Shown here one piece after another: positions 28,053-49,798 of a stretch of DNA of 59,819 nucleotides. The stretch lies in the IMG/VR virus record IMGVR_UViG_3300044580_000450, positions 1 to 59,819 of that record. One strand, 5' to 3'. Origin of the DNA: a virus (Duplodnaviria > Caudoviricetes). How positions within the stretch are numbered: position 1 is the stretch's first letter; each line of letters opens with the position of its first letter. The position numbers were made by a program, and so were the translations under genes. A model generated the notes under the pieces. The model worked only from the letters and a program-made list of their open reading frames with translations. It did no database searches and was not told the DNA's origin.

Positions 28053-28131
28053 TGTCGGCGAAGAGGGAATCGAACCCACATGCAACCAATTAACCTTTCG
28101 ACCGGGTATCAGCCGGAGGGTATATTCGCCG
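28053..28131 (-). ncRNA. Rearranged tRNA-like RNA with a GAT anticodon hairpin and no D-arm in the normal position
   Basis: Acceptor CGGCGAA/TTCGCCG and T-loop TTCGATT present; CCGG-CTGATAC-CCGG lies close behind the acceptor. Confidence 0.65.
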
Positions 28132-28136
28132 AAATT

Positions 28137-28210
28137 GTGGGCATACCGGGATTTGAACCCAGATTACGAGGTTATCAGCCGCGCGTCCTAACCAATTAGA
28201 CGATACGCCC
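28137..28210 (-). tRNA. tRNA-Ile(GAT)
   Basis: Cloverleaf; loop CTGATAA. Confidence 0.88.
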
Positions 28211-28214
28211 ATTT

Positions 28215-28288
28215 TGTCGGCATACCAGGACTCGAACCTGAATTACGGGGGTATAAGCCGCGCGTTCTCACCATTGAACTATATGCCG
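28215..28288 (-). tRNA. tRNA-Ile(TAT)
   Basis: Cloverleaf; loop CTTATAC; body similar to the adjacent Ile(GAT). Confidence 0.85.
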
Positions 28289-28291
28289 ATA

Positions 28292-28378
28292 TGCGGAGAG
28301 TGCGGGTAACGATCCCACCCGGGTTTTACCCCGACTCTAGTTTTCCAAACTAGTACCTTACCTCTCGGTCAACTCTCC
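28292..28378 (-). tRNA. tRNA-Ser(GGA)
   Basis: Loop TTGGAAA, long variable arm, atypical T-loop. Confidence 0.8.
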
Positions 28379-28996
28379 AATAATTTTTTCTTTCATGTTT
28401 TGATTATCATCCCAAGGAATTCGTATAATTTTCCATCCCTGCTCTAAAAGAAATTTATCTTTTTGAAAATCTTTTTCCTTTCTTTCTTTATAATTATGTT
28501 GCTTACCATCTATTTCCAAAGCTATTTTATTTGATAAAGCAAAATCGATAAAGTATTTTCCTACCTTAAATTCCTGTTCAAATAATATTCCTTCTTTTTC
28601 TAAAATATCTTTAGTTATTTTTTCAGGTCGTGACATCTTGTTTCGGGATTGCCAACCAATTGTTGTATCTCCTTTTTTATATCTTCTTTTAGCACTATCC
28701 GAAAAAAGTTTAGAAAGTTGTTTTTTACCTATTTCAGAGGATGCTCTTAATTGAGCTGAACATTTTTTACTACAGGTTTTTTGCTTTATTTTCTTCTTTT
28801 TAACCAAAAACTCCTTTCCACACTTTTCGCATTTTTTAGAAATCAAAGGATATTTTTCTTTAATAATCTTTTTTAATGTTTCTGAAATCAAAGAACGTTT
28901 ATTTTTTGTACTAAATCCTTTAGCACATTTATCCGAACAAAATCTGCCAGAACCATAAGTTCCATCATGTTCTTTTTCACAATATTCACATTTCAT
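28358..28996 (-). CDS. DUF559/Vsr-like endonuclease with Cys repeats, inserted in the tRNA cluster
   Basis: GSGRFCS, CSKKC, YFIDF, LEIDGKQH, KD.FL..QGWKIIRI. Confidence 0.85.
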   Translation of the reverse strand: MKCEYCEKEHDGTYGSGRFCSDKCAKGFSTKNKRSLISETLKKIIKEKYPLISKKCEKCGKEFLVKKKKIKQKTCSKKCSAQLRASSEIGKKQLSKLFSDSAKRRYKKGDTTIGWQSRNKMSRPEKITKDILEKEGILFEQEFKVGKYFIDFALSNKIALEIDGKQHNYKERKEKDFQKDKFLLEQGWKIIRIPWDDNQNMKEKIIGELTER

Positions 28997-29050
28997 ATCT
29001 ATTATACTAAATAGACTTTGAAAGTTTCGAATAGAGGACTTTGTCCTTAA

Positions 29051-29123
29051 GAGCTTCTACGCAGCCTCGAACTGCGGACTCCGGTATACCACACCGGTAT
29101 TTTACCGACTGAACTATAGAAGC
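29051..29123 (-). tRNA. tRNA-Thr(GGT)
   Basis: CCGGT-GTGGTAT-ACCGG. Confidence 0.85.
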
Positions 29124-29126
29124 AAT

Positions 29127-29202
29127 TGAGCCTACAATCGGGATCGAACCGACTTCTGCGCATTACGAGTGCGCTATCCTCTGCCTTCTAGACGATGCAG
29201 GC
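29127..29202 (-). tRNA. tRNA-Thr(CGT)
   Basis: GCGCA-CTCGTAA-TGCGC. Confidence 0.85.
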
Positions 29203-29210
29203 TTTTGTGC

Positions 29211-29294
29211 TGGGTGGAAGACGGGATTCGAACCCGCGTGCCCTAAGGCCCTGATCCACAGTCAGGTCGGAAACCACTACCGGTTACAACCACC
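29211..29294 (-). tRNA. tRNA-His(GTG) with encoded G-1 and an extended variable arm
   Basis: CCTGA-CTGTGGA-TCAGG; C73 discriminator. Confidence 0.8.
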
Positions 29295-29297
29295 ATT

Positions 29298-29386
29298 TGC
29301 GGAGGGTGAGGGATTCGAACCCCCGGGGCATTTACACGCCCTTCAGTTTTCAAGACTGACCTGATAGACCACTCTAGCAACCCTCC
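29298..29386 (-). tRNA. tRNA-Ser(TGA)
   Basis: TCAGT-CTTGAAA-ACTGA; long variable arm. Confidence 0.9.
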
Positions 29387-29390
29387 AAGG

Positions 29391-29478
29391 TGCGGAGAGC
29401 AGAGTATTCGAAACTCAAGCATTGTTAACGCTCCCTTCGCTTAGCAGGCGAGGACACCACCTCGGTGCGTTACTCTCC
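29391..29478 (-). tRNA. tRNA-Ser(GCT)
   Basis: Loop CTGCTAA; long variable arm. Confidence 0.8.
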
Positions 29479-29484
29479 AATGGT

Positions 29485-29576
29485 TGCGGAGGCGAAGAGA
29501 TTCGAACTCTTATGGCATTAAAACGCCACTCTCGGTTTTCGAGACCGGGCCATTGCTCTGTTGATGGTACACCTCC
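29485..29576 (-). tRNA. tRNA-Ser(CGA)
   Basis: Loop CTCGAAA; long variable arm. Confidence 0.8.
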
Positions 29577-29587
29577 AAAAATATGTC

Positions 29588-29622
29588 AAAGAAAAAGGGA
29601 AGGCTTTTTAAGGACCTTCCCT
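29588..29622 (-). terminator. Attenuator terminator upstream of the Ser/Thr/Ile/His tRNA operon
   Basis: AGGGAAGGT..GCCTTCCCT hairpin followed by TTTTCTTT. Confidence 0.8.
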
Positions 29623-29653
29623 GAGAATAAAATTGAAATTAAAATTAAGAGAT

Positions 29654-29734
29654 TCAATTTTGAGTCACAAGAAGGCCCGCCTGATCCGAGGATGAGGTAC
29701 TAATACTAATCGTATGTATAGAATGCCTTCTCAT
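29654..29734 (-). CDS. Leader peptide MRRHSIHTISISTSSSDQAGLLVTQN
   Basis: Hand-translated; codons 4-16 are only His, Ser, Ile and Thr. Confidence 0.8.
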   Translation of the reverse strand: MRRHSIHTISISTSSSDQAGLLVTQN

Positions 29735-29791
29735 TTTTTGGTTTTTTATATATATCAACTTATATGCAAGAAAAATACTAAGGTTTTGCAA

Positions 29792-30214
29792 TTATTTGTT
29801 ATTTATTAATTCTTCCCTAACTTCTTCCAGAGAAGACATATCATTTTCCGCCATCTCCTTGAAAAAGTTTCTTCCAGCTATCAAAGAATTTAATCTTCTC
29901 TGAAGACCCTTTGTTCTAAAGAAAGAAAATAAAGAAATGCCAACACATGCGAATCCAAACCACTGCGGAGCTCCGTAAAATATTCCAACGAAAGCCGGAA
30001 CAAAAGCCACCCAAGTCATAAATCTCATTAAAAGCATCCATGAAAAGCTAATATGGATTTTTTCAACGTACATCTGGTCATTCAGCCGGATGAATTTCAA
30101 GGGGCTTTCTATAAGAGCTTCATTAAAAAACTTATCCATTTCTTGACGATTTGAGAAACGGAAATCAGTTGCTTTAAACTTAAGTCCTTCGAATTCCATT
30201 GTTATTGTTGCCAT
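29792..30214 (-). CDS. Membrane protein
   Basis: Two TM helices; promoter box upstream. Confidence 0.6.
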   Translation of the reverse strand: MATITMEFEGLKFKATDFRFSNRQEMDKFFNEALIESPLKFIRLNDQMYVEKIHISFSWMLLMRFMTWVAFVPAFVGIFYGAPQWFGFACVGISLFSFFRTKGLQRRLNSLIAGRNFFKEMAENDMSSLEEVREELINNK

Positions 30215-30294
30215 CTCTTTTAATTTTAATTTCATTGTAAATGTACAAATAATTTCCTTAATACGAAAATATTTATCAGATAAAATCGTTAAAA

Positions 30295-30885
30295 TTAATA
30301 ATTTTTTTCAATATAATCCATTAATTTCTTGATATTTTCGTCTGCTTTAGGACCCATTATACCAAGACAGGACTTAAGAAATGCCAGCCTTCCTTTTTTA
30401 TAACTTGATAATGAAAGATGATTGAATTCCAATCTTATTTTCTTTTCAGTCTCAAAGAATTTTTCATACGATCCAACAAATCCAGCATTGTCCGCATCCC
30501 AAAAAATTTTTAAAAGAGGATCAGCAGGTTTTTTCCTATATTTTGTGCATTCAATCATTTCCCCAATTTTCTTAGCCATAAATGGATCTTCTCCTTTAAA
30601 TGTCTGCATAAACATTTGGAGAGATTTATCCTCGTTATCTCTAAATCCAGGGATATAAACAGCATCATGAAAGAATGCAGCTAGAATAAGAGCTTCTCGA
30701 TGAATAGGTAAAACAAAATTCCTTTTCTTTTCAATATCATATAAAATTTGATGAAGATGGTCTATATTATGATACTTCCTCCTCGGTTCGTTCCATGCTT
30801 CTTCAAGTAAACGAATAGTAAAATTGGATAAGTATTTTTCCAAAATCCCTCTATATTGAATAAAAGGGTTCATTCTATTTTCCAT
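30295..30885 (-). CDS. HD-domain phosphohydrolase
   Basis: R.YHN..H, FHDAVY, NE.KS and DAD. Confidence 0.85.
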   Translation of the reverse strand: MENRMNPFIQYRGILEKYLSNFTIRLLEEAWNEPRRKYHNIDHLHQILYDIEKKRNFVLPIHREALILAAFFHDAVYIPGFRDNEDKSLQMFMQTFKGEDPFMAKKIGEMIECTKYRKKPADPLLKIFWDADNAGFVGSYEKFFETEKKIRLEFNHLSLSSYKKGRLAFLKSCLGIMGPKADENIKKLMDYIEKNY

Positions 30886-31103
30886 TGGTGCTTTCTGTTA
30901 TGCTTCCAAGTTTTGTACATTCTTATTTGATGGCCCCAAATCAACCTTGATTTTCTCCATCCCCTGCGTCCTCTTTTACGCTTCTGATAATAACCATATT
31001 CCTCTGGATATGGATCTTGATCAATGCATCTTAATATATGATACTCTCTACTATTTGTAGTAAAATTGAGTATCTGTGATTGTTTTGGCTTATGTTTTCT
31101 CAT
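30870..31103 (-). CDS. Small basic protein ending WK..RK.QW
   Basis: ORF; paralogue of the upstream ORF. Confidence 0.65.
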   Translation of the reverse strand: MRKHKPKQSQILNFTTNSREYHILRCIDQDPYPEEYGYYQKRKRGRRGWRKSRLIWGHQIRMYKTWKHNRKHQWKIE

Positions 31104-31279
31104 GGCATCCACTGTTTACGTTTTTTACTCTGGTATTTCCAGCAACGTGGTGCATGCCAACCTAATCTATTGCAACCTTTATGGGGGCTGCAAATTGGAC
31201 AATGTAAAAGTCTAAGTTTATCAAGACGAGTATATTTGAATACCCGACGATGAGTAGTGTACTTGTAATTGTTTCTCAT
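31100..31279 (-). CDS. Small basic Cys/His protein, 59 aa (not in the ORF track)
   Basis: Hand-translated: CPICSPHKGCNR..WKYQSKKRKQW; ATGA overlap with the next gene. Confidence 0.7.
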   Translation of the reverse strand: MRNNYKYTTHRRVFKYTRLDKLRLLHCPICSPHKGCNRLGWHAPRCWKYQSKKRKQWMP

Positions 31280-31347
31280 AATGGTCTTTATTTAAGGAAC
31301 TATTTTCCTCAAAGACCATCTAATATTAATTTTTTATTTTTCATATT

Positions 31348-31848
31348 TTAGAATACAACTTTTATTCCTAATACAATAGCCATGGCAATAAAAGCTAAAA
31401 TTTCTATCCACCAAGTTCTATTTTTACATATCGTTTTTCCTTTTATCTTTATAAATCTGGTTAAAACTAATGGTAAAGCAATTGCTGCAAAACCAACTGC
31501 TATTGGCCATAGATCAAAATCCAAAATAGTAGATAATTGACTAAATAAAATCCCAGATAATGCACCAATTATATGAACGGTTTCTGTCATCTTTTCTCGA
31601 TATGCAGCTGCGGCACCGACAAAAGCTATTCCGGCGCCGGCAAAAAACATCAAAGGGGTTGATCCAACTATCATTGCTGGAATTGCATATCCCCAGCACC
31701 ATAGTGTAAATAGAAATTTTTTATTATCCGGTAAAGAATAATAACTATGGGATATGGAAGGCAATACTCCATATTTAGCCCAAATAGCTCCAACATAAGT
31801 AAAAAATACTAGGAGCATTAAAATATAAAATGTCAAAACGTATGTCAT
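31348..31848 (-). CDS. Multi-TM membrane protein
   Basis: Hydrophobic; PSIS.SYY. Confidence 0.7.
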   Translation of the reverse strand: MTYVLTFYILMLLVFFTYVGAIWAKYGVLPSISHSYYSLPDNKKFLFTLWCWGYAIPAMIVGSTPLMFFAGAGIAFVGAAAAYREKMTETVHIIGALSGILFSQLSTILDFDLWPIAVGFAAIALPLVLTRFIKIKGKTICKNRTWWIEILAFIAMAIVLGIKVVF

Positions 31849-31865
31849 AAATGTTTCAGTTATTT

Positions 31866-32375
31866 TTATTCTTCATCTTCAGGTTCATATTCATCTTCAA
31901 ATTCTTCATCATAAGGATCTTCTTCCTCCGATGGAGATGTGTCTACCATTATATCTCCAATAAAGTTCCCATTTCCATCTGCTTCAACTCCACCAGTAAA
32001 TCCATTAATTCGAGGATAAAAATCATTATTAACATCAAATTCGGGATTAAGCTTTTGAACATCAGCAACTGTAATAATAGCTACCATTCCTGCATCCACC
32101 CCGGTACTTCCTTTATGAACACTGTTTCCAGAATGGTTAATTACATCATATTCCCCATCGCCAAATGCTGTGGCAGTATAAAGAATTTTAATGGTTGAAT
32201 CAATATAGATTGTTCCGGCATTAGCTGTTTCAGAACCCTGGTTTCCATTAGGATACCAAAATTTATTAATAATTTCTTGCCATATATCATCTGGGATAAA
32301 ATAGCATGGATCCGTGACAATAATGTCTCCTGAAAAACCTTGATAAGTTTCAGTTGTTACTTCAATCTTTCTCAT
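31866..32375 (-). CDS. Hypothetical protein with acidic tail
   Basis: DPCY, TAFGDGEY and GVDAG motifs. Confidence 0.65.
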   Translation of the reverse strand: MRKIEVTTETYQGFSGDIIVTDPCYFIPDDIWQEIINKFWYPNGNQGSETANAGTIYIDSTIKILYTATAFGDGEYDVINHSGNSVHKGSTGVDAGMVAIITVADVQKLNPEFDVNNDFYPRINGFTGGVEADGNGNFIGDIMVDTSPSEEEDPYDEEFEDEYEPEDEE

Positions 32376-32391
32376 AATAAATCGTTTATTT

Positions 32392-32604
32392 TTATTCTTT
32401 GCCAAAGAAATCATCTTGGCATTTTTGACAGAGGCCAGAGATTCTGGACTCCTTTCTGGAAAGTTCATCGCGAAAATCTTCATCGTTTACAGGCATGCTG
32501 CAGAAAGGGCAAAGACGAAATTCTGCCCGTGAAACTTCTTTTTCAAACCCTAATTGTCTTAGGAGATCTTTTTTCCGGGGATTGTCATAAATTGGTTCTG
32601 ACAT
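32392..32604 (-). CDS. Small zinc-finger phage protein
   Basis: CPFC, FRDELSRKE..ISGLCQKCQD.FF. Confidence 0.7.
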   Translation of the reverse strand: MSEPIYDNPRKKDLLRQLGFEKEVSRAEFRLCPFCSMPVNDEDFRDELSRKESRISGLCQKCQDDFFGKE

Positions 32605-32637
32605 GCTAGCGATGTTTATTTATATATTCGAAAAAAG

Positions 32638-32713
32638 TGCGCCCCCAGAAGGATTCGAACCCTCAACCATCTGATCCGAAGTCAGATGCTCTGTCCAATT
32701 GAGCTATGGAGGC
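32638..32713 (-). tRNA. tRNA-Arg(TCG)
   Basis: TCTGA-CTTCGGA-TCAGA. Confidence 0.92.
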
Positions 32714-32734
32714 ATACCCCTGCCTTACTTAAGG

Positions 32735-32937
32735 GCTTCGGAACCCGGGGATCAGGCTACTGTTAATTCGCATTTACATGTGGTGAAATGTCGCTTGCAA
32801 ACCCCTCGATTAATACGTAATCGAACGGAAAGTTTCGATATGGTCCAAACCTACAACAAACCTCTGCGATTACAAAGTGCAGTGCCGGTTATTCATCCTG
32901 ATAACTCAGATCCCTGATAACGGAGGGAAACCCGAAG
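32735..32937 (-). ncRNA. Unidentified ~200-nt structured RNA between tRNAs
   Basis: End-to-end pairing CTTCGG/CCGAAG and GGGATC/GATCCC; GC-richer than flanks; no credible ORF. Confidence 0.45.
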
Positions 32938-33012
32938 TGAGCGGGAGACGGGGCTCGAACCCGCAACCCTCAGCGTGGAAGGCTGATGCTCTACCAATTG
33001 AGCTACTCCCGC
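32938..33012 (-). tRNA. tRNA-Gly(TCC)
   Basis: TCAGC-CTTCCAC-GCTGA. Confidence 0.92.
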
Positions 33013-33362
33013 TTTTTAATTCTTATATACTTTAACCATGAATAAGTTTTTCTAGTTTTAAGATATTCTAAATTATCATCATTGTCATAAGCCTCTCTTT
33101 CGAAGGATAAAGATCGATACGCTTCAGATCCATTTACAAATATACGAATAATCCACTCAATTAAATACCACAAATAGAAAAAAATTATCAACATTTCTAA
33201 CTGCTGTTTCCAATGAATTTTTTCATGGTTTACAGTTCTTAAGTTAGAAATATATTTATCCTTAATATAAATTCCAAACGGGGCTAAAGTAATTCCAGCT
33301 ATTCCTCCTCCAGTAATAAAATTAAGAAATCCTTTTAATTTACGAACTTTTGGTTTACACAT
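33003..33362 (-). CDS. Hypothetical HExxH protein
   Basis: GITLAPFG, NHEKIH..QQ and FEREAY. Confidence 0.7.
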   Translation of the reverse strand: MCKPKVRKLKGFLNFITGGGIAGITLAPFGIYIKDKYISNLRTVNHEKIHWKQQLEMLIIFFYLWYLIEWIIRIFVNGSEAYRSLSFEREAYDNDDNLEYLKTRKTYSWLKYIRIKKRE

Positions 33363-33525
33363 AACGTTTTTATCTATTTATACAAAATAGATTAAAACAT
33401 TAAGTATTTTATCCGGATTATTAATTTTTTATACCAGGGAAGATCTTCCCATTCTTTTAGAAGCTTTTCGACCTCTTCAGCTTCAATAAGAATATATTTT
33501 TCTTCTTGTTCCATAATGAAAAATT

Positions 33526-33600
33526 TGAGCGGAAAACGGGGTTCGAACCCGCGACCTAAAGCTTGGGAAGCTTTCACTCTACCAACTGAGCTACTTCCGC
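33526..33600 (-). tRNA. tRNA-Gly(CCC)
   Basis: AAAGC-TTCCCAA-GCTTT. Confidence 0.92.
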
Positions 33601-33605
33601 TTATA

Positions 33606-33680
33606 GTGACTCCGTAGGGATTCGAACCCTAAACCTCCTGATCCGTAGTCAGGTGCTCTATCCAATTGAGCTACGGAGCC
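33606..33680 (-). tRNA. tRNA-Arg(ACG)
   Basis: CCTGA-CTACGGA-TCAGG. Confidence 0.93.
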
Positions 33681-33868
33681 TATTCTATTTCTTTTTCTAT
33701 TTCCTTTGCAATCGTTTGTTTTTCACTTCTTTTAAGGGATCTAAACGATCTTTTTATATCTTGCTTAAAACTTTTGCGATGCCGAGAATCCTCAAATCCT
33801 TGTTCCATAACCTCTTTTTTTAATTTTTTGAGGTCCTTTCTTTTCTGATCGTAGTTCTTAGCTTTCAT
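33680..33868 (-). CDS. Small basic protein
   Basis: ORF. Confidence 0.5.
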   Translation of the reverse strand: MKAKNYDQKRKDLKKLKKEVMEQGFEDSRHRKSFKQDIKRSFRSLKRSEKQTIAKEIEKEIE

Positions 33869-33877
33869 TGATTGACA

Positions 33878-34510
33878 TTATTCTATATTATTATTTTCGC
33901 CGTAAAGAGCTCTTACTTTTTGTATCCATTCATTAGTTTTAAGTTTTGTCATAAATACTTTATTATCTATAACTCCCTTAAAAACTAAACCTTCCTCTAA
34001 ACCAAAAGCATTTCTTTTAACAAGATCTATAATGTCCTCAGTTAATATCCCTTTATATATTACTCTGGGAATCCCTAAGTGACCAAACAAATCGATGAAA
34101 TCCCCAGGTTTTAAGAAATCTTTTTTATAGAGAAACATATCAAAAATTACTAAATCATGAGGTTCTTTCCAATCATGTTGTCCTGCAAAAGAATGTTCTC
34201 CAAAAAATTCTCCATAAACAGTTATGGTATCAATACCTCTGAAAATCTTTTCTTCATTGAAAATTTTATCAAGCTTTTCAGCATATTTGTTTTCAAAGAT
34301 CCCAATTGCTTCTTCAAAAGGATTATTAGCATTTTTAATCATCTGAGTTCTTGTCCCAAATTTGCCAAATCCATTAGTAAATCTAGATTTTTTTGAAAGC
34401 TTTTTATTCCACTCAGCACAAAAATTAGATCCATCAAATTTTCTAAATCCATAGACATGCTGTCCGATGTAATCCTCGACATTTTTTTCTATAGAATGAT
34501 AATGCTTCAT
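33878..34510 (-). CDS. RNA ligase-like nucleotidyltransferase (Rnl2-type)
   Basis: KFDGSN, FGTR, YGEFFG, FD, EGLVFK and KLKT. Confidence 0.8.
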   Translation of the reverse strand: MKHYHSIEKNVEDYIGQHVYGFRKFDGSNFCAEWNKKLSKKSRFTNGFGKFGTRTQMIKNANNPFEEAIGIFENKYAEKLDKIFNEEKIFRGIDTITVYGEFFGEHSFAGQHDWKEPHDLVIFDMFLYKKDFLKPGDFIDLFGHLGIPRVIYKGILTEDIIDLVKRNAFGLEEGLVFKGVIDNKVFMTKLKTNEWIQKVRALYGENNNIE

Positions 34511-34857
34511 TTATAATTTATAACTGCTAATGGTTTTCCTTTATCTTTTGCTAAATTTATGGAATGCTGAGTTCCTTTTGATTGACCATCCCAGAATGCA
34601 ATAACTGCGTCAGCTGATTCAATTATCTGAATATTTCTTTTATATCCGGCAGATTTACCAAACTGCTCCCAATCTGGGAGAAAAACAAGAAGCTCAATCC
34701 TATTTTCTCTCGCCCATCTTTCGGCTAAAGAATCCGCTCCGTAAGCTCCCCCAGATATAATAACAGATATTGGTCTCCTGCTATGAATAGTATCCAGTTT
34801 TAGTTTCAATAAATCATAATCATCGAAACCCCTTGAACCAACTACTGCTAATTTCAT
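34507..34857 (-). CDS. DUF2493/YspA-like SLOG protein
   Basis: VVGSR, ISGGA.GADSLA, AG..RN and FWDG.SKGT. Confidence 0.88.
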   Translation of the reverse strand: MKLAVVGSRGFDDYDLLKLKLDTIHSRRPISVIISGGAYGADSLAERWARENRIELLVFLPDWEQFGKSAGYKRNIQIIESADAVIAFWDGQSKGTQHSINLAKDKGKPLAVINYK

Positions 34858-35581
34858 TTGTTTTCTCTATTACGTCCAATATGATAACCATCACAATAAA
34901 TGCACTTATAAACACTGAAATGAACCTTTCGTTTTTTCTCCATTGCTTCAGCAGATTTTAGAGCAGTTTCTTTAGTGTTATACATCACCTTTGGATCCCC
35001 GCTATCCTGCCTGAAATGCGAATTCTTATGAAATAAACCCCATGCATTACCAGTAATGAAGAAATTTCTAAAAGCCCTTTTGAAAGGACCCTGATCCATT
35101 ATTCCTAATATGAGGTTTTTAAGTTTCATTTTATTTGTATAAAGGTTCCGTCTTCCATTCCCTTTCTAATCCATCTCATCAAAGTAATTGCTTTGAATTT
35201 TGGCCAAAGATAAGTTACATTCCACTCTTCATCCATTGAATTTATTTCCAGCTGATATGTCGAATCCTCCACGTCTATTGTATAATAGACTTTTCCTGCA
35301 CATACATACGACAATATAGCTTCTGTATTTGAAACTATTTTTTTAAGTGAATGTTTTATTTTCATCTTTCCAATCTCCAAATTAATATTCTTAACCAATC
35401 TACCTTTCTTAGAGTAATTAAATTATCAAGTTTTATATACCTTTGATATTTTTTAATTTGTTTCTCTGTAAAAGGCCTTTTCCTTTGTACATAAAATTCC
35501 TTAAATAGCTTCCGGTGAAAATAATTATAATGAATAAATCTCCACCAAGCTGTTTTTCTGTATAGAAATTTTATTTTCATT
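34854..35581 (-). CDS. Three small hypothetical ORFs (34854-35129, 35126-35365, 35362-35580)
   Basis: ATGA-overlapped ORFs. Confidence 0.55.
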
Positions 35582-35592
35582 GTATTTTGTTT

Positions 35593-35666
35593 TGTAGCCG
35601 GAACGGGAATCGAACCCATATCTAAGGTTTAGGAAACCCCAATTCTATCCATTGAACTATCTGGCC
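35593..35666 (-). tRNA. tRNA-Arg(CCT)
   Basis: Loop TTCCTAA. Confidence 0.88.
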
Positions 35667-35690
35667 AATTAAAGTGGCCAATCTGGCCAC

Positions 35691-35912
35691 TTACCAAGAT
35701 GTTATTTCATATTCATGATGCTGACCACATTCGGGGCAGGTATAATCGAATCCAATATGTCCATGAGACCCGCAAAGATCGCAAGGAGAATCGGAATGAG
35801 AAAAATTATGCTTGCCGATTTCAATCATAACCTCTTTACCTGTAACAGGGCAGATAACTTTTGCGTAAATGCCTTCTACTTTGTGTTCTACTTTTGCAAC
35901 TTTTTTTGCCAT
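35691..35912 (-). CDS. Small zinc-ribbon protein
   Basis: CPVT, CDLC and CPEC. Confidence 0.6.
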   Translation of the reverse strand: MAKKVAKVEHKVEGIYAKVICPVTGKEVMIEIGKHNFSHSDSPCDLCGSHGHIGFDYTCPECGQHHEYEITSW

Positions 35913-35923
35913 GATATTTTGTT

Positions 35924-36448
35924 TTATGCTACTTTACGGCTTTTTAATTGAAACCAATTCGGATCTGATGGGCGTTCTTTTTTCTTTTTTTCCTTTTTTC
36001 CAGAAAATTCTACCCAAGTCATTCCTTTCATAAAAAGATCGTAAGGGATTGATTTTTTCTTGCAATTACAATCATAACAACTTACTAAATAATTGGAAGT
36101 GTCCAATATATCAATTCCTTCGGATCTGGGAATTTTATGATCAACAGTAACGCAAGGATGTAAATTCTGAGTTTTCTTATTTCTTTCAGGCATTTTGTGA
36201 ATATGTTTTCCACAATAATGACAAACCCAAAATTTATCCCCATTAACCTCTATCCTGTTTTTTCTTAACCAAAGGCGTCGAACTATAAAATAATATCTCC
36301 AATCTGTTTGATATTCTTCAGGATCATCTAAATGTTTATAATAATCTTTTAAAAGAATAGCTGAAGCATAAGAAGGAGTAGAGGGATCTGAGAAAATTTT
36401 ATGAATTTCCTTGGTATTTCTGGATAACTGGAATTTTATTGTTTCCAT
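35924..36448 (-). CDS. HNH endonuclease
   Basis: CHYCG, TVDHKIP, N...SC..CN..K. Confidence 0.85.
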   Translation of the reverse strand: METIKFQLSRNTKEIHKIFSDPSTPSYASAILLKDYYKHLDDPEEYQTDWRYYFIVRRLWLRKNRIEVNGDKFWVCHYCGKHIHKMPERNKKTQNLHPCVTVDHKIPRSEGIDILDTSNYLVSCYDCNCKKKSIPYDLFMKGMTWVEFSGKKEKKKKERPSDPNWFQLKSRKVA

Positions 36449-36450
36449 GA

Positions 36451-36915
36451 TCAGATTTTTTGAGCCTGTAACAATCTATTCCTTAAATCCTGCAATTGTT
36501 TTTCCGTATATTTTTCTGGAATAATAAATTCCTCCGCTTTATGAGATAAGATGGTAACCCCATCTTTTTTAAGAGACCAGGTTAAATACCAATTATGATA
36601 AATGGATTTCTTTTTATCTTTTTTCTTCAAAATAGGAACTAGAAATGTTTCCCCCTTTTCGTCTTTTTGAATTTCCACCCCCGTTATAAAGCATTGGGCT
36701 TCTTGTTTAACAGCAAAACAAGATATTCGGTCATCCCTATATTCTTCAATGCAAAGAGTAACTTCATCTCCAATAGAAAGACCTAATTCTTTTTCAAGAA
36801 TTTGGGATTTTAAGGATTGATAATGATATTCCAGATTTTCTTTATCCCTTTTGAATTTTTCTTCTAAAGATTTGATTTCTTCAGAAATAGATTTAATTTT
36901 ATTCAGAATTTCCAT
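36451..36915 (-). CDS. Hypothetical protein (start moved to MEILNK)
   Basis: Promoter box at 36938-36945 lies inside the track's longer start. Confidence 0.6.
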   Translation of the reverse strand: MEILNKIKSISEEIKSLEEKFKRDKENLEYHYQSLKSQILEKELGLSIGDEVTLCIEEYRDDRISCFAVKQEAQCFITGVEIQKDEKGETFLVPILKKKDKKKSIYHNWYLTWSLKKDGVTILSHKAEEFIIPEKYTEKQLQDLRNRLLQAQKI

Positions 36916-37031
36916 TTCTCTCTTTTTAATTACAGAGTAAATGTACAAATAATTTCCCAAATAAAAAAATTTCCGGAGTTAAAACTTAACCGTTTGAATG
37001 ATTTTCCTTCATTATAAACTTGATTATAATT

Positions 37032-37106
37032 TGTAGCCCCACCGGGAATCGAACCCAGATCTAAGGTTTAGAAGACCTTTGTTACTATCCATTGAACTAT
37101 GAGGCC
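37032..37106 (-). tRNA. tRNA-Arg(TCT)
   Basis: AAGGT-CTTCTAA-ACCTT. Confidence 0.9.
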
Positions 37107-37113
37107 ATGGATT

Positions 37114-37191
37114 TGTGGGAGATGGGGGAGTCGAACCCTCGACCTCTTGCTTGTAAGGCAAGCGCTACTGAACCAACTGAGCTAATCTCCC
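37114..37191 (-). tRNA. tRNA-Val(TAC)
   Basis: CTTGC-CTTACAA-GCAAG. Confidence 0.92.
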
Positions 37192-37322
37192 AATCACGAG
37201 GCCAGGTTTTATTTTCACCTGGAATCTTCTTCTTCAGCTGGGGCATCCGAAGTCGACCGTCATAAACCGGAAAAATTAATTGCCCCAGCAACCAATTCTA
37301 CCTTTTATGATCCACTCTCAAT

Positions 37323-37397
37323 TGAGCGGAAGACGGGGCTCGAACCCGCGGCCTCGACCTTGGCAAGGTCGCGCTCTACCAACTGAGCTACTTCCGC
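37323..37397 (-). tRNA. tRNA-Gly(GCC)
   Basis: CGACC-TTGCCAA-GGTCG. Confidence 0.94.
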
Positions 37398-37400
37398 ATT

Positions 37401-37475
37401 TGTGACCCCGGTGAGACTCGAACTCACGACTCCAACATTAAAAGTGTTGTACTCTACCAACTGAGTTACGAGGTC
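37401..37475 (-). tRNA. tRNA-Lys(TTT)
   Basis: CAACA-CTTTTAA-TGTTG. Confidence 0.92.
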
Positions 37476-37476
37476 T

Positions 37477-37607
37477 TGGTGGCGAGAGCAGGAGTTGAAC
37501 CTACGATCTTCAAGTTATGAGCTTGACGTTTTATCCGATGTATCTCTTCATGTTACTACACCTAAATGAGAAAATTTAAAGAGCATTTTTTTCTAAACTT
37601 TCTCGCC
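37477..37607 (-). tRNA. tRNA-Met(CAT) with a ~55-nt D-loop insertion carrying the repeated RNA module; CCA encoded
   Basis: Acceptor GGCGAGA/TCTCGCC-ACCA; TCAAG-CTCATAA-CTTGA; T-arm intact. Confidence 0.75.
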
Positions 37608-37610
37608 ATT

Positions 37611-37684
37611 TGTAGCGGGAGAGGGATTCGAACCCCCGACCTAAAGGTTATGAGCCTTTCGAGCTGCCTCTGCTCCACCCCGCA
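37611..37684 (-). tRNA. tRNA-Met(CAT), initiator-like 1:72 mismatch
   Basis: TGCGGGGTGGAGCAG start; loop CTCATAA. Confidence 0.85.
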
Positions 37685-37695
37685 ATATTATTATA

Positions 37696-37780
37696 TGTAC
37701 CGTCGGCAGGATTCGAACCTGCGAGACATAAATGCCAAGGGATATGAGCCCTCTCCGATTGTCCACTCTGGCACGACGGT
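37696..37780 (-). tRNA. tRNA with CAT anticodon on a class II (Leu-like) body
   Basis: GAGGG-CTCATAT-CCCTT; long variable arm; A73. Confidence 0.75.
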
Positions 37781-37784
37781 ATTA

Positions 37785-37906
37785 GTAGCGGAAATGGGAG
37801 TCGAACCCAATATCAATAGGTTATGAGCCTATTATGATTCGGTAAACCCGGACAGAAGCATCTATATCTTCCACCCATTGTTACCGCTCCGTTTCACTCT
37901 TCCGCG
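37785..37906 (-). tRNA. tRNA-Met(CAT), initiator-like, with a ~45-nt hairpin in the D-loop
   Basis: ATAGG-CTCATAA-CCTAT; insert CGGTAA..TTACCG. Confidence 0.7.
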
Positions 37907-37910
37907 ATTT

Positions 37911-37986
37911 GTTGCGATAGATGGACTCGAACCATCGACCTCTCCCTTTCGGCGAGAGCGCTCTTTTGCCTCTGAGCTATATCGCA
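37911..37986 (-). tRNA. tRNA-like RNA with an aberrant anticodon loop (GCCGAAAGG), Phe-like or decoy
   Basis: Normal acceptor, D and T arms; no U33. Confidence 0.65.
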
Positions 37987-38045
37987 AACACCATTTTTAT
38001 GTTCGAACTTTATTATGGTGTTAGATCACACCTTCCAGTGTAATT

Positions 38046-38122
38046 TGTGGAAGCGAAGGAAATCGAATCCTCCTCACGTGGATTGCAAGTCGACGTCGCC
38101 AAGCCTTGGTACATGCGCCCCC
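38046..38122 (-). tRNA. tRNA-Ala(TGC), divergent
   Basis: Loop CTTGCAA; G3-U70. Confidence 0.75.
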
Positions 38123-38177
38123 ATTTGAAGTTCGGCTTTTTACAGAGACCGGGATTTCGCCACAAACTGATAAATTA

Positions 38178-38314
38178 AATTGAGAAAATTAACTTGAGTG
38201 TTTTTTCTGTGCAACCGTTACACTTACCCCCTAAGGAAATTTGGCAGGGGGTCCAGGAATTGAACCTGGTCTAGTCGAATGGAAGTCGAAGTAACTCGCT
38301 GTTTCACTACAATT
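38178..38314 (-). ncRNA. Module RNA a: clamp enclosing a circularly permuted Trp-like tRNA domain
   Basis: T-arm and ACCCCCTGCCA come before GGGGGT and the D-arm. Confidence 0.75.
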
Positions 38315-38391
38315 TGTGCCCTCTGTAGAATTCGAATCTACGACCTCTTCCATGTCACGGAAGCGCTCTCGGCCATCTGAGCTAAAAGGGC
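38315..38391 (-). tRNA. tRNA-Val(GAC)
   Basis: CTTCC-GTGACAT-GGAAG. Confidence 0.88.
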
Positions 38392-38481
38392 AAATGGGTA
38401 AGTGGACAAACCTTAGGAATCTGCAGAGGTAGCAGGGTCATATATGTCCTTTAGACTCGAAAAGGAAACTTACCCAGGAAG

Positions 38482-38556
38482 TGCGGGGAGTGAGGGGATC
38501 GAACCCACGACCTGCGGATTAACAGTCCGTCGCTCTACCTACTGAGCTAACTCCCC
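38482..38556 (-). tRNA. tRNA-Asn(GTT)
   Basis: Loop CTGTTAA. Confidence 0.9.
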
Positions 38557-38685
38557 ATTAAAATACTAAATTTCCTATCTGCCAGAATAAACGTGTACTC
38601 ATTTTATTCTGGTCTTACACCACACCTCATAATCACGTTTAGTACAGTAAGCCCGATTATAAGAGGCTCGGTTAATTTAGTATTT

Positions 38686-38773
38686 TGCGTTCCGGGTAGG
38701 ATTCGAACCCACGGTGGCATTTCTGCGTCTGGTTAACGGCCAGGACCTTTCGACCATCTAAGGCAACCGGAAC
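38686..38773 (-). tRNA. tRNA-Asn(GTT) with long variable arm and C33
   Basis: Loop CCGTTAA; variable hairpin GCA-GAAA-TGC. Confidence 0.72.
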
Positions 38774-38775
38774 AT

Positions 38776-38879
38776 AATCTGAGAAAGGATGAAAAGAGTT
38801 TAATCAAAAGCGACTTTTGGAGCTCTCGACAGGAATCGAACCTGCATTAACCGAAGTAGCTCTTTTCTTACTACAGATT
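38776..38879 (-). ncRNA. Module RNA b: clamp enclosing a T-arm and acceptor remnant
   Basis: GTAGTAAG..GAGCTACTTCG, GCAGGTTCGATTCCTGT, CTCTTTTC..TTTCTC. Confidence 0.7.
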
Positions 38880-38953
38880 GCGGTGTGTACGGGAATCGAA
38901 CCCGTGAGCTCCTGAGTGACAGTCAGGAATGATAACCACTTCACTAACACACC
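38879..38953 (-). tRNA. tRNA-Asp(GTC)
   Basis: CCTGA-CTGTCAC-TCAGG. Confidence 0.9.
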
Positions 38954-39048
38954 AAATTTAATCTATCCCCGTTACTGGCATAACGGCTTCCCAGTGCCAG
39001 CTGAGAGAAACGGTCCTGGCATATCCGCCGGTGTCCGCTCTTGGATTA

Positions 39049-39123
39049 GTTCCCCCCACGGGACTCGAACCCGTAACCCCCTGATTAAGAGTCAGGTACT
39101 CTGCACAATTGAGCTACGGAGGA
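39049..39123 (-). tRNA. tRNA-Lys(CTT)
   Basis: CCTGA-CTCTTAA-TCAGG. Confidence 0.9.
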
Positions 39124-39168
39124 ATAAAAGATGATTTTTTGGTTAACGGAGGAAATCAACAAAACCAC

Positions 39169-39245
39169 TGGTGGACCGTAAGGGAGTCGAACCCTTGGCC
39201 TCCTGCTTGCAAGGCAGGCGCTCTAGCCATCTGAGCTAACAGCCC
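39169..39245 (-). tRNA. tRNA-Ala(TGC), CCA encoded
   Basis: CCTGC-CTTGCAA-GCAGG; G3-U70. Confidence 0.94.
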
Positions 39246-39310
39246 ATATACTTGACTCCATGCCATTTCATGGGTATTAAAACCGCCAAATTTGGGGGTA
39301 TGTCAAGCAT

Positions 39311-39385
39311 TGCAGGGGCACCAGGACTCGAACCCGGAGTCAGCGGTTTTGGAGACCGTTATGTTACCAATTACACCATACCCCT
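39311..39385 (-). tRNA. tRNA-Trp(CCA)
   Basis: Loop CTCCAAA. Confidence 0.9.
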
Positions 39386-39388
39386 ATT

Positions 39389-49375: not shown

Positions 49376-49798
49376 TTATAACAAATTAAATTTACTAGTT
49401 ATTGGATCTATTTTTTCTGGAAGATCCGGGCCGATTGCTACAGCAGTTATAGTAACTTTTCCTCCAAATTCTGTTAAACCAGCATCTTCAATCAATGAAC
49501 AAATAATTCCTTGTTTTTTTGCTTCATTGTAAGCCTCCACCATTTCATTTAGATTTTCTGCGCCAACGACAATTTTTTTGAAAATACCATTTACCCAGAG
49601 ATCAAGAGGGGAATCTGGTTTTACACAAAGACATTTAATGGTGTTTTCTGTCCACCAATGATTTTGATTCCACATGAGATCAAAAATAGCTTTCATTGAA
49701 GCATGAGCTCCCTGGGCAATCATTTTTCCTTTCCTCATATTGAGGTCTTTGCGAATTATGATAACTTGTTTAGGTGCATCCTCTTTATACATCCTCAT
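49376..49798 (-). CDS. pth2: Peptidyl-tRNA hydrolase Pth2
   Basis: KQVI.IRKDL.M.KGK..AQ.AHAS, KKIV, DAG.TEF and AIGP. Confidence 0.93.
   Translation of the reverse strand: MRMYKEDAPKQVIIIRKDLNMRKGKMIAQGAHASMKAIFDLMWNQNHWWTENTIKCLCVKPDSPLDLWVNGIFKKIVVGAENLNEMVEAYNEAKKQGIICSLIEDAGLTEFGGKVTITAVAIGPDLPEKIDPITSKFNLL

What the first reader, a model, noticed from the sequence alone, without database searches (positions are those of the whole stretch)
37477..37607. tRNA-Met with the clamp module inserted, strand-permuted, in its D-loop
Seen: an otherwise complete CCA-ending tRNA(CAT) carries GCTCTTTAAATTTTCTCA-TTTAGG-TGTAGTAACATGAAGAGATACATCG in the D-loop, the two clamp strands in reverse order joined by a short loop. 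Retention after permutation argues that the module works as a 3D RNA structure rather than a DNA site. It could alternatively be a non-canonical intron.
Basis: partly seen in the sequence, partly recalled or inferred. Interest (0 to 1): 0.75.

Follow-up and report, generated by a model that had tools for sequence, protein, structure and literature searches.

The report
Y-RNA handle inside a phage tRNA
A tRNA-shaped RNA gene in a giant phage carries, in its D-loop, a conserved hairpin that elsewhere in such phages forms the stem of small RNAs encoded next to a Ro60-type protein gene, so it is most likely a new, tRNA-bodied form of the known "Y RNA" partners of Ro60.

Summary
On the minus strand at 37607-37477 there is a cloverleaf with a perfect 7-bp acceptor stem, a CAU anticodon arm, a T arm and ACCA. 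A 54-nt hairpin sits between D-loop nucleotides 15 and 16.

The module is a two-stranded rod, not a clamp or pseudoknot. It has a conserved helix (GUAGUAA opposite UUUCUC, one bulged U, one Y.U mismatch), a covarying helix P1 and an internal loop (UUAC / A-run). In the six other window copies the rod is closed by the RNA's 5' and 3' ends and holds a variable cargo. Here it is capped at the far end and opens into the D-stem.

The rod family tracks TROVE/Ro60 genes:
- 5 of 5 near-complete rod-bearing phage genomes have one.
- 0 of 44 control contigs have one.
- In 80 Ro60 loci the motif occurs 113 times on the gene's strand and 0 times on the other.

A 95-96% identical contig places a Ro60 gene about 2 kb beyond the window end.

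Best reading (0.6): a phage Y-RNA-type Ro60 handle grafted onto a tRNA body. No Rfam YrlA match and no binding data exist. An intron remains a rival. New variant of a known kind.

The parts
37477..37607 (-). Whole unit: tRNA-shaped RNA (CAU anticodon, ACCA end) with a 54-nt hairpin in the D-loop
   Evidence: Read; the 3' 73 nt are called by ARAGORN and Rfam tRNA at 33.2 bits; stems conserved with compensatory changes in 12 related loci
37601..37607 (-). Acceptor stem 5' strand (pairs 7/7 with 37481-37487)
   Evidence: the MFE keeps this stem; helix 1: 98.8% of cells paired, 4 pairs changed on both sides
37539..37592 (-). The insert (RNA nt 16-69): A-run, P1 strand, 3-nt bulge, UUUCUC, 8-nt cap, GUAGUAA, 2-nt linker, P1 strand, AUACA
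   Evidence: allele comparison
37577..37583 (-). P1 strand b (7 nt), pairs with 37544-37550
   Evidence: the MFE of the insert alone gives this helix; the second allele changes both strands; 12 different P1 sequences among capped forms, each matching its own partner
37568..37573 (-). UUUCUC, one strand of conserved helix H
   Evidence: helix 3, 100% of cells paired
37560..37567 (-). 8-nt cap loop. It replaces helix P0, which closes the rod in the other copies
37553..37559 (-). GUAGUAA, other strand of helix H (G1-C, U2 bulged, A3-U, G4-C, U5.U, A6-U, A7-U)
   Evidence: A3-U changes to G3-C in the copy at 40327 and in three copies of L252
37536..37550 (-). P1 strand a (37544-37550), AUACA, then UCG, which doubles as D-loop nt 16-18
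37510..37526 (-). Anticodon arm: 5-bp stem and 7-nt loop with CAU
37488..37504 (-). T arm
   Evidence: helix 4
38177..38315 (-). Open-form rod whose cargo is a complete circularly permuted tRNA (UCC anticodon arm, T arm, acceptor closed over CCA, D arm). The rod enters between nt 27 and 28
   Evidence: the Rfam tRNA model aligns the anticodon arm, T arm and acceptor 3' strand
38776..38879 (-). Open-form rod with a T-arm minihelix cargo
   Evidence: P1 8 bp, P0 6 bp
39481..39590 (-). Open-form rod with a tRNA-like cargo lacking an acceptor stem (D-like hairpin, GUU loop arm, T arm)
   Evidence: the ortholog in L008 has compensatory changes
40247..40337 (-). Cargo-less rod (31-nt loop) behind a TAnnTTTG-type promoter-like site; it carries the GUGGUAA/UUUCCC variant
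45036..45345 (-). Open-form rod around a 261-nt unassigned structured RNA
   Evidence: no Rfam match
44778..45023 (-). Open-form rod around a 200-nt unassigned RNA, followed by a terminator-like hairpin
   Evidence: no Rfam match

Best explanation
The locus encodes a Y-RNA-type non-coding RNA built on a tRNA frame.

Shown: the transcript strand folds as a cloverleaf. Its D-loop is interrupted, between nt 15 and 16, by a hairpin. That hairpin has the same conserved helix (GUAGUAA / UUUCUC with a bulged U and a Y.U mismatch), the same covarying helix P1 and the same UUAC / A-run internal loop as a family of rod-shaped stems. These stems occur 4-7 times per genome in certain large phages.

Shown: this rod family is encoded beside, and on the strand of, a phage TROVE/Ro60 gene. 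A near-identical relative of this phage has such a gene about 2 kb past the window end.

Inferred: the rod is the docking stem for the phage Ro60 protein, as the 5'/3' stem is in known Y RNAs. The tRNA body is the second, 'effector' module, as the tRNA-like domain is in YrlA.

Inferred: the RNA is cut out of the tRNA array by RNase P and 3' processing like its neighbours. It keeps the hairpin and tethers Ro60 to tRNA-binding or RNA-decay factors such as PNPase. It does not decode AUG.
For: 1. Anatomy. 7 of 7 motif copies in the window lie on the tRNA strand.

2. Rod filter. In a viral-contig scan, 51 of 148 motif instances also have a P1 partner of at least 5 bp, the UUCUC tail and a closing helix P0 of at least 4 bp. 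When downstream halves are swapped, a mean of 3.1 of 51 pass.

3. Helices. RNAalifold finds P0 and H on its own. P0+H has 83.4% of cells paired against 42-57% for slid partners, with 0 of 500 shuffles reaching the score.

4. The focal copy folds like the others. Allele 2 (L249, L250, L196) changes the D-stem and P1 on both strands. In 12 capped forms the tRNA stems stay 97.9% paired and H 100% paired.

5. Ro60 link.
- TROVE (PF05731) is present in 5 of 5 rod-bearing genomes that are 67-100% complete, next to the rods.
- It is present in 19 of 34 other rod-bearing contigs, most of them fragments under 20% complete.
- It is over the cut-off in 0 of 3 rod-less relatives.
- It is present in 0 of 44 contigs with chance-only motif hits; 6 further loci were not searchable.
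- Fisher p = 2e-11 for 24/39 against 0/47.

6. From the protein side. In 80 TROVE loci with 3 kb flanks the motif occurs 113 times on the gene's strand and 0 times on the other. 68 of 80 loci have at least one. 92 copies lie upstream, at a median of 630 nt.

7. A GenBank huge-phage record whose TROVE protein is only 33% identical also has a rod about 540 nt upstream.

8. This lineage. Contig G008 is 95-96% identical and collinear with the window end. It carries a 566-aa TROVE ORF, with a cargo-less rod about 600 nt upstream.

9. The ORF matches the solved Ro60 of Thermus phage phiLo (PDB 9L5Y/9KOP, E = 2e-18). That protein binds two phage Y-like RNAs encoded upstream of its gene and recruits host PNPase (PMC12135203, passages).

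10. YrlA RNAs are circularly permuted tRNA mimics with a stem that carries the Ro60 site and a conserved YUAY after it (PMC4201824 section 6; 10.1101/312249 passages). The rods have UUAC at the same place.
Against: 1. No binding was or could be tested here.

2. The YrlA signature GNCGAAN0-1G is absent; the conserved motif is different.

3. Rfam YrlA and Y_RNA models match none of the rods: window at gathering score; E up to 10 over 36900-40450 and 38160-38330; 16 TROVE loci.

4. The window itself has no TROVE gene.

5. By collinearity with G008 the gene would lie about 24 kb from the focal copy. This is outside the 4-kb criterion used for YrlA.

6. TROVE genes and rods both live in tRNA arrays, so part of the proximity could be shared address. 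The presence/absence tallies argue against this.

7. The insert alone is not unusually stable (z = +0.21; 110 of 200 shuffles fold as well). The MFE of the whole RNA pairs the 5' part of the insert differently.

8. Canonical D-loop residues flank the insert exactly, which is also what an excisable intron would look like.
Confidence: 0.6

Rival explanations
1. The insert is a protein-spliced or otherwise excised intron. The open-form rods are then the leader/trailer signal of permuted tRNA genes, by analogy with archaeal and algal BHB systems. Removal gives an ordinary tRNA(CAU).
For: Deleting nt 16-69 leaves a canonical 9-nt D-loop (A14 G15 U16 C17 G18 G19 A U A21; read). The same rule (cut before the A-run and after UUAC+N) turns the cargo at 38315-38177 into a complete tRNA with a 5-bp anticodon stem. 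Its 27-43 pair covaries: G-C here and in L012, C-G in L004. One motif then marks an interrupted tRNA, permuted tRNAs and rods at several tRNA positions, as the BHB does. The YrlA structure paper itself raises this possibility for YrlA (10.1101/312249, passages).
Against: No tRNA splicing endonuclease (0 of 5) or RtcB (0 of 5) was found in rod-bearing phage genomes. There is no BHB geometry. Many rods hold cargo that cannot become a tRNA: 12-40-nt loops, bodies without an acceptor stem, and 200-260-nt RNAs. Cargo-less rods have their own promoter-like and terminator-like sites beside the Ro60 gene. Orthologous capped forms do not keep the anticodon (CAU here, AAC in L472), and some have lost G18G19 and the T-loop (L463, L473). 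No insert-free allele was found in the 3 loci that share the 3' half.
Confidence: 0.12
2. The rod is retained and functional but is not the Ro60 site. It could be a stabilising end-closure, or a handle for another phage or host factor (nuclease, modification enzyme, packaging). On this view Ro60 binds elsewhere or binds other RNAs.
For: The conserved sequence differs from every described Ro60-binding motif. Rods also flank large unrelated RNAs. Several rod-bearing contigs show no TROVE gene, among them one of 172 kb that is 62% complete.
Against: The strand-specific clustering directly upstream of TROVE genes (113 against 0) and the presence/absence tallies would then be unexplained. No other gene was examined for co-occurrence, so this rival was not actively tested.
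Confidence: 0.15
3. A decaying duplicate tRNA gene was hit by duplication or recombination between neighbouring rod units and has no function of its own.
For: Three other CAU tRNA-like genes lie within 450 nt. Position 8 is A, not U. One related locus (L475) keeps only the 5' half plus the rod. CCA is present in one allele and not in another.
Against: All four helices and helix H are kept through compensatory changes across 12 diverged loci from different contigs, including a second tRNA family with a GUG loop.
Confidence: 0.08
4. The rod is a new small self-cleaving ribozyme that releases or circularises its cargo.
For: It has two conserved internal loops on a rod, it occurs in circularly permuted forms, and it sits in tRNA arrays. 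These traits are seen in some small ribozymes (recalled, not tested).
Against: No hammerhead, twister, pistol, hatchet, hairpin or HDV-like match at E up to 10. Cleavage inside a D-loop would destroy the conserved tRNA frame. The Ro60 association needs no catalysis.
Confidence: 0.03

Closest known systems
YrlA (Y RNA-like A; Rfam RF02553) of Salmonella, Mycobacterium smegmatis and 22 phages (Chen et al. 2014, PMC4201824)
   Same: It is a small RNA encoded next to, and on the strand of, a Ro60/TROVE gene, often several in a row. A stem carries the presumed Ro60 site and is followed by YUAY (here UUAC). The second module mimics a tRNA, in the order T arm, closed acceptor, D arm. The copy at 38315-38177 has exactly this order. 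M. smegmatis YrlA is cut by RNase P and receives CCA.
   Different: The conserved stem motif is GUAGUAA/UUUCUC, not GNCGAAN0-1G. No Rfam match was found. Cargo ranges from nothing to complete permuted tRNAs with anticodon arms and to 260-nt RNAs. In the focal locus the stem is not made by the RNA ends but is a capped hairpin inside the D-loop of a non-permuted tRNA with free acceptor ends.
Yrl1/Yrl2 and phiRo60 of Thermus phage phiLo (PMC12135203; PDB 9L5Y, 9KOP)
   Same: A phage-encoded Ro60 has Y-like RNAs just upstream of its gene. The TROVE ORFs beside the rods match this protein over their full length (E = 2e-18 to 2e-19).
   Different: Protein identity is about 25%. The phiLo RNAs were picked by a CGAA motif in a large internal bulge. 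They are not described as tRNA-bodied in the passages I read.
Circularly permuted and intron-bearing tRNA genes of Cyanidioschyzon merolae and Thermofilum (as cited in 10.1101/312249; the primary papers were not read)
   Same: The 3' half precedes the 5' half, the acceptor ends are joined by a linker, and the transcript ends pair in a helix. One motif marks interrupted and permuted genes.
   Different: Those are processed at a bulge-helix-bulge motif by a splicing endonuclease and a ligase. Neither the motif nor the enzymes were found here.
Deinococcus radiodurans Yrn1
   Same: It is a Y RNA whose T-like and D-like arms have a different order relative to the RNA ends than in YrlA (PMC4201824, passages). 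Topological variation among Y RNAs therefore has precedent.
   Different: It is not a complete tRNA, and it has no handle inside a D-loop.

Membership tests
Y RNA / YrlA | Encoded within about 4 kb of a Ro60/Rsr (TROVE) gene, on the same strand | tested here: met
   Met for the module family: 68 of 80 TROVE loci have at least one copy within 3 kb, with 113 copies on the gene's strand and 0 on the other. Not met for the focal copy itself: the window has no TROVE gene, and the gene lies about 24 kb upstream by collinearity with G008.
Y RNA / YrlA | Long stem formed by the 5' and 3' ends that carries the Ro60 site | tested here: met
   Open copies: P0, H and P1 are supported by covariation. In the focal copy the same stem is a capped hairpin, not an end-to-end stem.
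Y RNA / YrlA | GNCGAAN0-1G (or GGUCCGA / CGAA) motif in the 5' strand | tested here: not met
   The conserved 5' motif is GUAGUAA (22 of 22 rows have GU[AG]GUAA). The YrlA motif is taken from PMC4201824 section 6.
Y RNA / YrlA | Conserved YUAY after the stem strand | tested here: met
   UUAC follows P1 in 4 of 7 window copies, CUAC in 1 and AUAC in 2, including the focal copy.
Y RNA / YrlA | tRNA-like second module | tested here: met
   The focal copy is a whole cloverleaf. The copy at 38315-38177 has a T arm, closed acceptor and D arm.
Y RNA / YrlA | Match to Rfam RF02553 or RF00019 at the gathering score | tested here: not met
   The only YrlA hit (25.5 bits against 69) spans the junction of two ordinary tRNAs.
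Y RNA / YrlA | Bound by Ro60 | not testable with these tools
   No RNA-protein prediction or experiment was available.
Canonical decoding tRNA | Cloverleaf with 7-bp acceptor, 5-bp anticodon stem, 7-nt loop with U33, and T arm | tested here: met
Canonical decoding tRNA | D-loop of about 7-11 nt, and U8 | tested here: not met
   63 nt lie between the D-stem strands. Position 8 is A.
Canonical decoding tRNA | Anticodon kept among orthologs | tested here: not met
   It is CAU here and in L463, L473 and L479, but AAC in L472, which has the same acceptor stem.
Protein-spliced (BHB) tRNA intron | Bulge-helix-bulge motif at the exon-intron borders | tested here: not met
   The borders lie in an asymmetric internal loop (A-run opposite AUACA), read.
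Protein-spliced (BHB) tRNA intron | Splicing endonuclease and RtcB-type ligase available | tested here: inconclusive
   PF01974 in 0 of 5 and PF01139 in 0 of 5 rod-bearing phage genomes. The host is unknown.
Group I intron / small self-cleaving ribozymes | Match to a known catalytic core | tested here: not met
   No such family at E up to 10 in 36900-40450. At 54 nt the insert is far below group I size (the size limit is recalled).

The most novel reading that the evidence does not exclude
The rods define a phage-specific class of Y RNAs in which the Ro60 handle is grafted onto complete tRNAs that may be chargeable. The handle sits in the D-loop, the variable region or the anticodon stem, and on two-piece permuted tRNAs opened by RNase P. 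Ro60, with PNPase or repair enzymes, would then be delivered to tRNA-handling machinery or the ribosome. Alternatively, Ro60 plus the rod is the recognition platform of a bacterial-type system that excises the rod and rejoins interrupted and permuted phage tRNAs.
Probability: 0.12. Interest if true: 0.85.

Novelty: new variant of a known kind. Interest (0 to 1): 0.6.

Why it matters
Y RNAs are known to mimic tRNAs, but what the tRNA-like half does is still open. Here the presumed Ro60 handle is attached to tRNA bodies in several topologies. One of them is an otherwise complete, end-processed tRNA, with the handle placed at the one D-loop site that tolerates extra length. This gives a natural series of constructs for three questions: whether Ro60-bound RNAs can be charged, whether they meet the ribosome, and whether they recruit tRNA enzymes. 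It also adds a second handle sequence, absent from Rfam, with which phage Y RNAs can be found. Finally, it flags that 'odd' or uncalled tRNAs in giant-phage arrays may be Y RNAs rather than decoders. This affects tRNA counts and codon-usage arguments for such phages.

Tried and rejected
1. H-type pseudoknot (AGUAA pairing with UUACU around the P1 strand). Rejected: P1 often uses the whole intervening stretch (up to 9-10 bp), and U-to-C changes in GUAGCAA are not compensated.

2. Triple helix of the UUCUC tail on a purine-rich P1. Rejected: the tail does not change when P1 does.

3. Kissing hairpins / four-way junction. Left open; there is no covariation to test it.

4. Promoter, operator or transposon-end DNA site. 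Rejected on strand specificity and RNA-type covariation.

5. Known ribozymes and riboswitches. No Rfam hit.

6. Thermodynamic folding of the insert. Not informative.

7. Search for an insert-free allele. All 3 loci found carry the insert.

8. Cultured relatives.
- The capsid is closest to Lak megaphages at 48% identity.
- Lak-A1, LR756500 and PTm1 have neither rods nor a TROVE gene.
- blastn of one rod unit against the phage collection found nothing useful.
- Vibrio phage phiTY18 has a TROVE gene but no rod motif within 3.5 kb.

9. Cellular genomes. Only 1 of the first 120 pattern hits passes the rod filter, and it looks like chance.

10. Column-wise counting of P1 failed because MAFFT does not keep P1 in register. 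P1 therefore rests on my own script with a swap control. P1 plus tail alone discriminates poorly (83 of 148 real; 27.1 of 51 swapped), because many copies share AAGAG/CUCUU.

11. Literature. Searches found no paper on this motif, on permuted tRNAs in phages, or on a Ro60 handle inside a tRNA. Supplemental Tables S1/S2 of PMC4201824, which list the 22 phages with YrlA, were not opened and could bear on the novelty claim.

Full report
**Setting.** The window is one IMG/VR viral contig of 59,819 bases, estimated at 15% of a genome. It encodes a T4-type capsid protein, a prohead protease, gp30.3, Thg1, PTH2 and NAD-salvage genes. Its capsid protein is 48% identical to that of the Lak megaphages. 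ARAGORN finds 33 tRNA genes on the minus strand between 40,000 and 28,100. Rfam finds 29 tRNA matches and no other family at gathering score.

**The observation.** On the minus strand, 37607-37477 reads as a cloverleaf:
- a perfect 7-bp acceptor stem followed by A and CCA;
- a 4-bp D-stem;
- a 5-bp anticodon stem with a 7-nt loop carrying CAU;
- a 5-nt variable loop and a T arm.

Sixty-three nucleotides lie between the D-stem strands. Programs call only the last 70-73 nt, with a 5-of-7 acceptor and a marginal score (33.2 bits against a 29-bit cut-off). The joining loop is 8 nt. The insert is 54 nt and lies between D-loop positions 15 and 16. The encoded CCA is not conserved: the otherwise identical allele in L251/L488 has the CAAAU trailer that follows most tRNAs of this array.

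**The module.** A regular-expression scan finds GT[AG]GT[AG]A, then 5-18 nt, then TAC[AT]TCG, seven times in the window. All seven are on the minus strand, at 45341, 45020, 40327, 39585, 38874, 38310 and 37559.

They gave about fifty clear further copies. Comparing them shows one architecture, 5' to 3':
- a closing helix P0;
- GUAGUAA;
- a variable strand P1a;
- UUAC, then UCG;
- a cargo of 12 to 260 nt;
- an A-rich run;
- P1b;
- a 3-8-nt bulge;
- UUUCUC, whose last C begins the other strand of P0.

GUAGUAA pairs with UUUCUC as G1-C, U2 bulged, A3-U, G4-C, U5.U, A6-U, A7-U. RNAalifold found P0 and three of these pairs unaided on 22 short-cargo copies. On that alignment P0 plus this helix (H) is 83.4% paired against 42-57% with slid partners. 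Seven of 11 pairs change on both sides, and no shuffle of 500 reaches the covariation score. A3-U becomes G3-C in the copy at 40327 and in three copies of L252.

P1 differs in almost every copy and matches its own partner. 51 of 148 motif instances pass a joint P1 + tail + P0 filter, against a mean of 3.1 of 51 when downstream halves are swapped. P1 plus tail alone discriminates poorly (83 of 148 real; 27.1 of 51 swapped), because many copies share the same P1.

The module is therefore a rod-shaped RNA stem with two conserved irregular regions. I first modelled it as a pseudoknot and dropped that model: P1 often uses the whole stretch between the two conserved blocks, and GUAGCAA variants are uncompensated.

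**Why the order is reversed here.** In the six other window copies the rod is closed by the transcript's own flanks (P0) and opens toward the cargo. In the tRNA the same rod is capped by an 8-nt loop where P0 would be, and it opens into the D-stem. This is the only permutation a two-stranded stem allows. It could arise from a tandem duplicate of a unit whose cargo is a permuted tRNA.

The focal copy keeps H and a 7-bp P1. A second allele (L249, L250, L196) changes the D-stem and P1 on both strands. A dedicated scan returned 31 loci and 25 distinct sequences. By my reading:
- 17 are capped rods inside tRNA-like frames;
- 1 is an open rod behind a tRNA;
- 7 are chance hits.

The frames include a second family with a GUG loop and a long variable arm, and one case where the rod replaces the anticodon arm. 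In 12 of the frames, acceptor, D and T stems are 97.9% paired against 38-58% slid, with nine pairs changed on both sides, and H is 100% paired. Thermodynamics alone would not have shown this (z = +0.21 for the insert; the MFE of the whole RNA misfolds the 5' part).

**Cargo.**
- The unit at 38315-38177 holds a complete circularly permuted tRNA: an anticodon arm with UCC, a T arm, an acceptor closed over G-CCA, and a D arm. The Rfam tRNA model aligns its anticodon arm, T arm and acceptor 3' strand.
- In orthologs the anticodon is UUC, CCU or UGG. The pair between the nucleotide before the A-run and position 43 switches from G-C to C-G.
- Other units hold a T-arm minihelix (38879-38776), a tRNA-like body without an acceptor (39590-39481), nothing but a loop (40337-40247, behind a TAnnTTTG-type promoter-like site), or 200-260-nt RNAs with no Rfam match (45345-44778).
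- Elsewhere the rod sits at the variable-arm position of permuted tRNAs, or joins a 4-bp acceptor.
- Closely related strains keep the rods but differ strongly in cargo.

**The Ro60 link.** The order T arm, closed acceptor, D arm is that of YrlA Y RNAs, so I searched five rod-bearing phage genomes (67-100% complete; 4-7 rods each, all on one strand) for the TROVE domain.
- All five have a 525-572-aa TROVE ORF inside or next to the rod cluster.
- None has RtcB or a tRNA splicing endonuclease.
- Of 34 further rod-bearing contigs, mostly small fragments, 19 have a TROVE match, 13 of them over the cut-off.
- Three rod-less relatives have none over the cut-off.
- 0 of 44 contigs that hit the motif only by chance have one. 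Six loci were not held and 14 were not sent.
- Fisher p = 2e-11.

Starting from the protein instead, 80 viral loci with a TROVE homolog and 3 kb on each side hold 113 motif copies on the gene's strand and none on the other. 68 of 80 loci have at least one, and 92 copies lie upstream at a median of 630 nt. A GenBank huge-phage record whose protein is only 33% identical also has a rod about 540 nt upstream.

The window has no TROVE gene. Contig G008, 95-96% identical and collinear with the window's end, carries a 566-aa TROVE ORF on the same strand about 2 kb beyond position 59,819. A promoter-like site, a cargo-less rod and a terminator-like hairpin lie about 600 nt upstream of it. That ORF is 54% identical to the one beside four rods in L252. 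It matches the solved Ro60 of Thermus phage phiLo over most of its length.

**Comparison with what is known.** The sources and what I read of them:
- Chen et al. 2014 (PMC4201824; passages and section 6 in full). They define YrlA by its position within 4 kb of rsr on the same strand, a GNCGAAN0-1G motif near the 5' end, a conserved YUAY and a tRNA-like T / acceptor / D domain. They report it in 254 bacteria and 22 phages, and show that the M. smegmatis RNA is cut by RNase P and receives CCA.
- Wang et al. (10.1101/312249; passages). They call most YrlAs circularly permuted tRNAs with closed acceptors, and raise the idea of processing to real tRNAs.
- PMC12135203 (passages). It shows a phage Ro60 binding two phage Y-like RNAs encoded upstream of its gene and recruiting host PNPase.
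- Iyer et al. (PMC7824862; passages). They note TROVE proteins with a tRNA-like partner in some jumbo phages.

The rods share with these the genomic rule, the stem-plus-tRNA design and the UUAC. They do not share the GNCGAA motif or any Rfam match. I therefore file them as working like Y RNAs, not as members of RF02553.

Earlier notes of this scan on other genomes describe Y-RNA rows before rsr and handle-less YrlA-type mimics in phage tRNA arrays. They agree in kind but concern other DNA. I did not test them.

**Mechanism.**
- Shown: the sequence, the helices, the strand bias and the co-occurrence with TROVE genes.
- Inferred: Ro60 docks on helix H and its flanking irregularities. The RNA is released from the array like a tRNA. 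The hairpin leaves the elbow intact because it enters at the length-tolerant positions 15/16 and keeps A14, R15, G18, G19 and A21. The tRNA body serves as the tether for tRNA-binding or decay enzymes.

That the RNA decodes is unlikely. Position 8 is A, orthologs change the anticodon (AAC in L472), and some lose G18G19 and the T-loop.

The main rival is excision. Deleting nt 16-69 gives a textbook D-loop, and the same rule restores a 5-bp anticodon stem in the permuted cargo. Against it stand the stand-alone rods, the non-tRNA cargo and the lack of splicing enzymes in the phages.

**Verdict.** The finding is real and more than chance. It is a new variant of a known kind: a distinct handle sequence and several topologies, of which this D-loop form appears undescribed in the papers I could search. 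The supplements of PMC4201824 were not read.

Noticed in passing
window 37787-37906 (-): A second uncalled tRNA-like gene with a CAU loop. It has a 6-7-bp acceptor, an anticodon arm and a T arm, but a different ~45-nt hairpin in the D region, without the GUAGUAA motif. The MFE keeps the acceptor and the hairpin (z = -1.3).
   Followed up: partly
window 37697-37780 (-): An 84-nt tRNA with a CAU anticodon and a long variable arm (ARAGORN; Rfam 43.5 bits). Together with 37612-37684 and the two interrupted genes, this makes four CAU genes within 450 nt.
   Followed up: no
window 44798-45317 (-): Two structured-looking RNAs of 261 and 200 nt, each enclosed by a rod and ending in a terminator-like hairpin near 44760. 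No ORF of 80 aa or more and no Rfam match at E up to 10.
   Followed up: partly
L320:1489-1905 and L321:913-1328: GOLLD RNA (277 and 288 bits) lies between rod copies, directly upstream of the TROVE gene, in two viral contigs. Whether a rod encloses it was not checked.
   Followed up: no
window 40340-40360 and 40225-40240 (-); L257:1415-1432: TAnnTTTG-type promoter-like boxes (the Bacteroidota style, recalled) precede the cargo-less rods and a small ORF. This hints at a Bacteroidota host.
   Followed up: no
window 28100-40000 (-): Most tRNA genes of the array lack an encoded CCA and are followed by a conserved N-CAAAU spacer. Rod units with acceptor-bearing cargo often encode CCA.
   Followed up: no
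window 35927-36448 (-) and 28361-28996 (-): HNH and DUF559 endonuclease-like ORFs sit inside the tRNA array, and a SegE-like GIY-YIG ORF lies at 6488-7156. These may be homing endonucleases. Cargo between conserved rods differs sharply between near-identical strains.
   Followed up: no
window 47397-49364 (-), 22575-23312 (-), 49379-49798 (-), 17668-18198 (-): The phage encodes a TonB-dependent receptor-like protein, a Thg1-like tRNA 5'-end enzyme, PTH2 and peptide deformylase, and also an NAD-salvage set (NAPRTase, NAD synthase, NMN transporter).
   Followed up: no
window 39703-39765 (-) and 38245-38300 (-): Weak Rfam tRNA matches (32.1 and 22.3 bits) not called by ARAGORN. The second is the permuted cargo. 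The first is a further odd tRNA-like element.
   Followed up: partly
L475 (viral contig): A remnant: the 5' half of the GGCGAGA-type tRNA plus a capped rod, followed directly by an ORF instead of the tRNA's 3' half.
   Followed up: no
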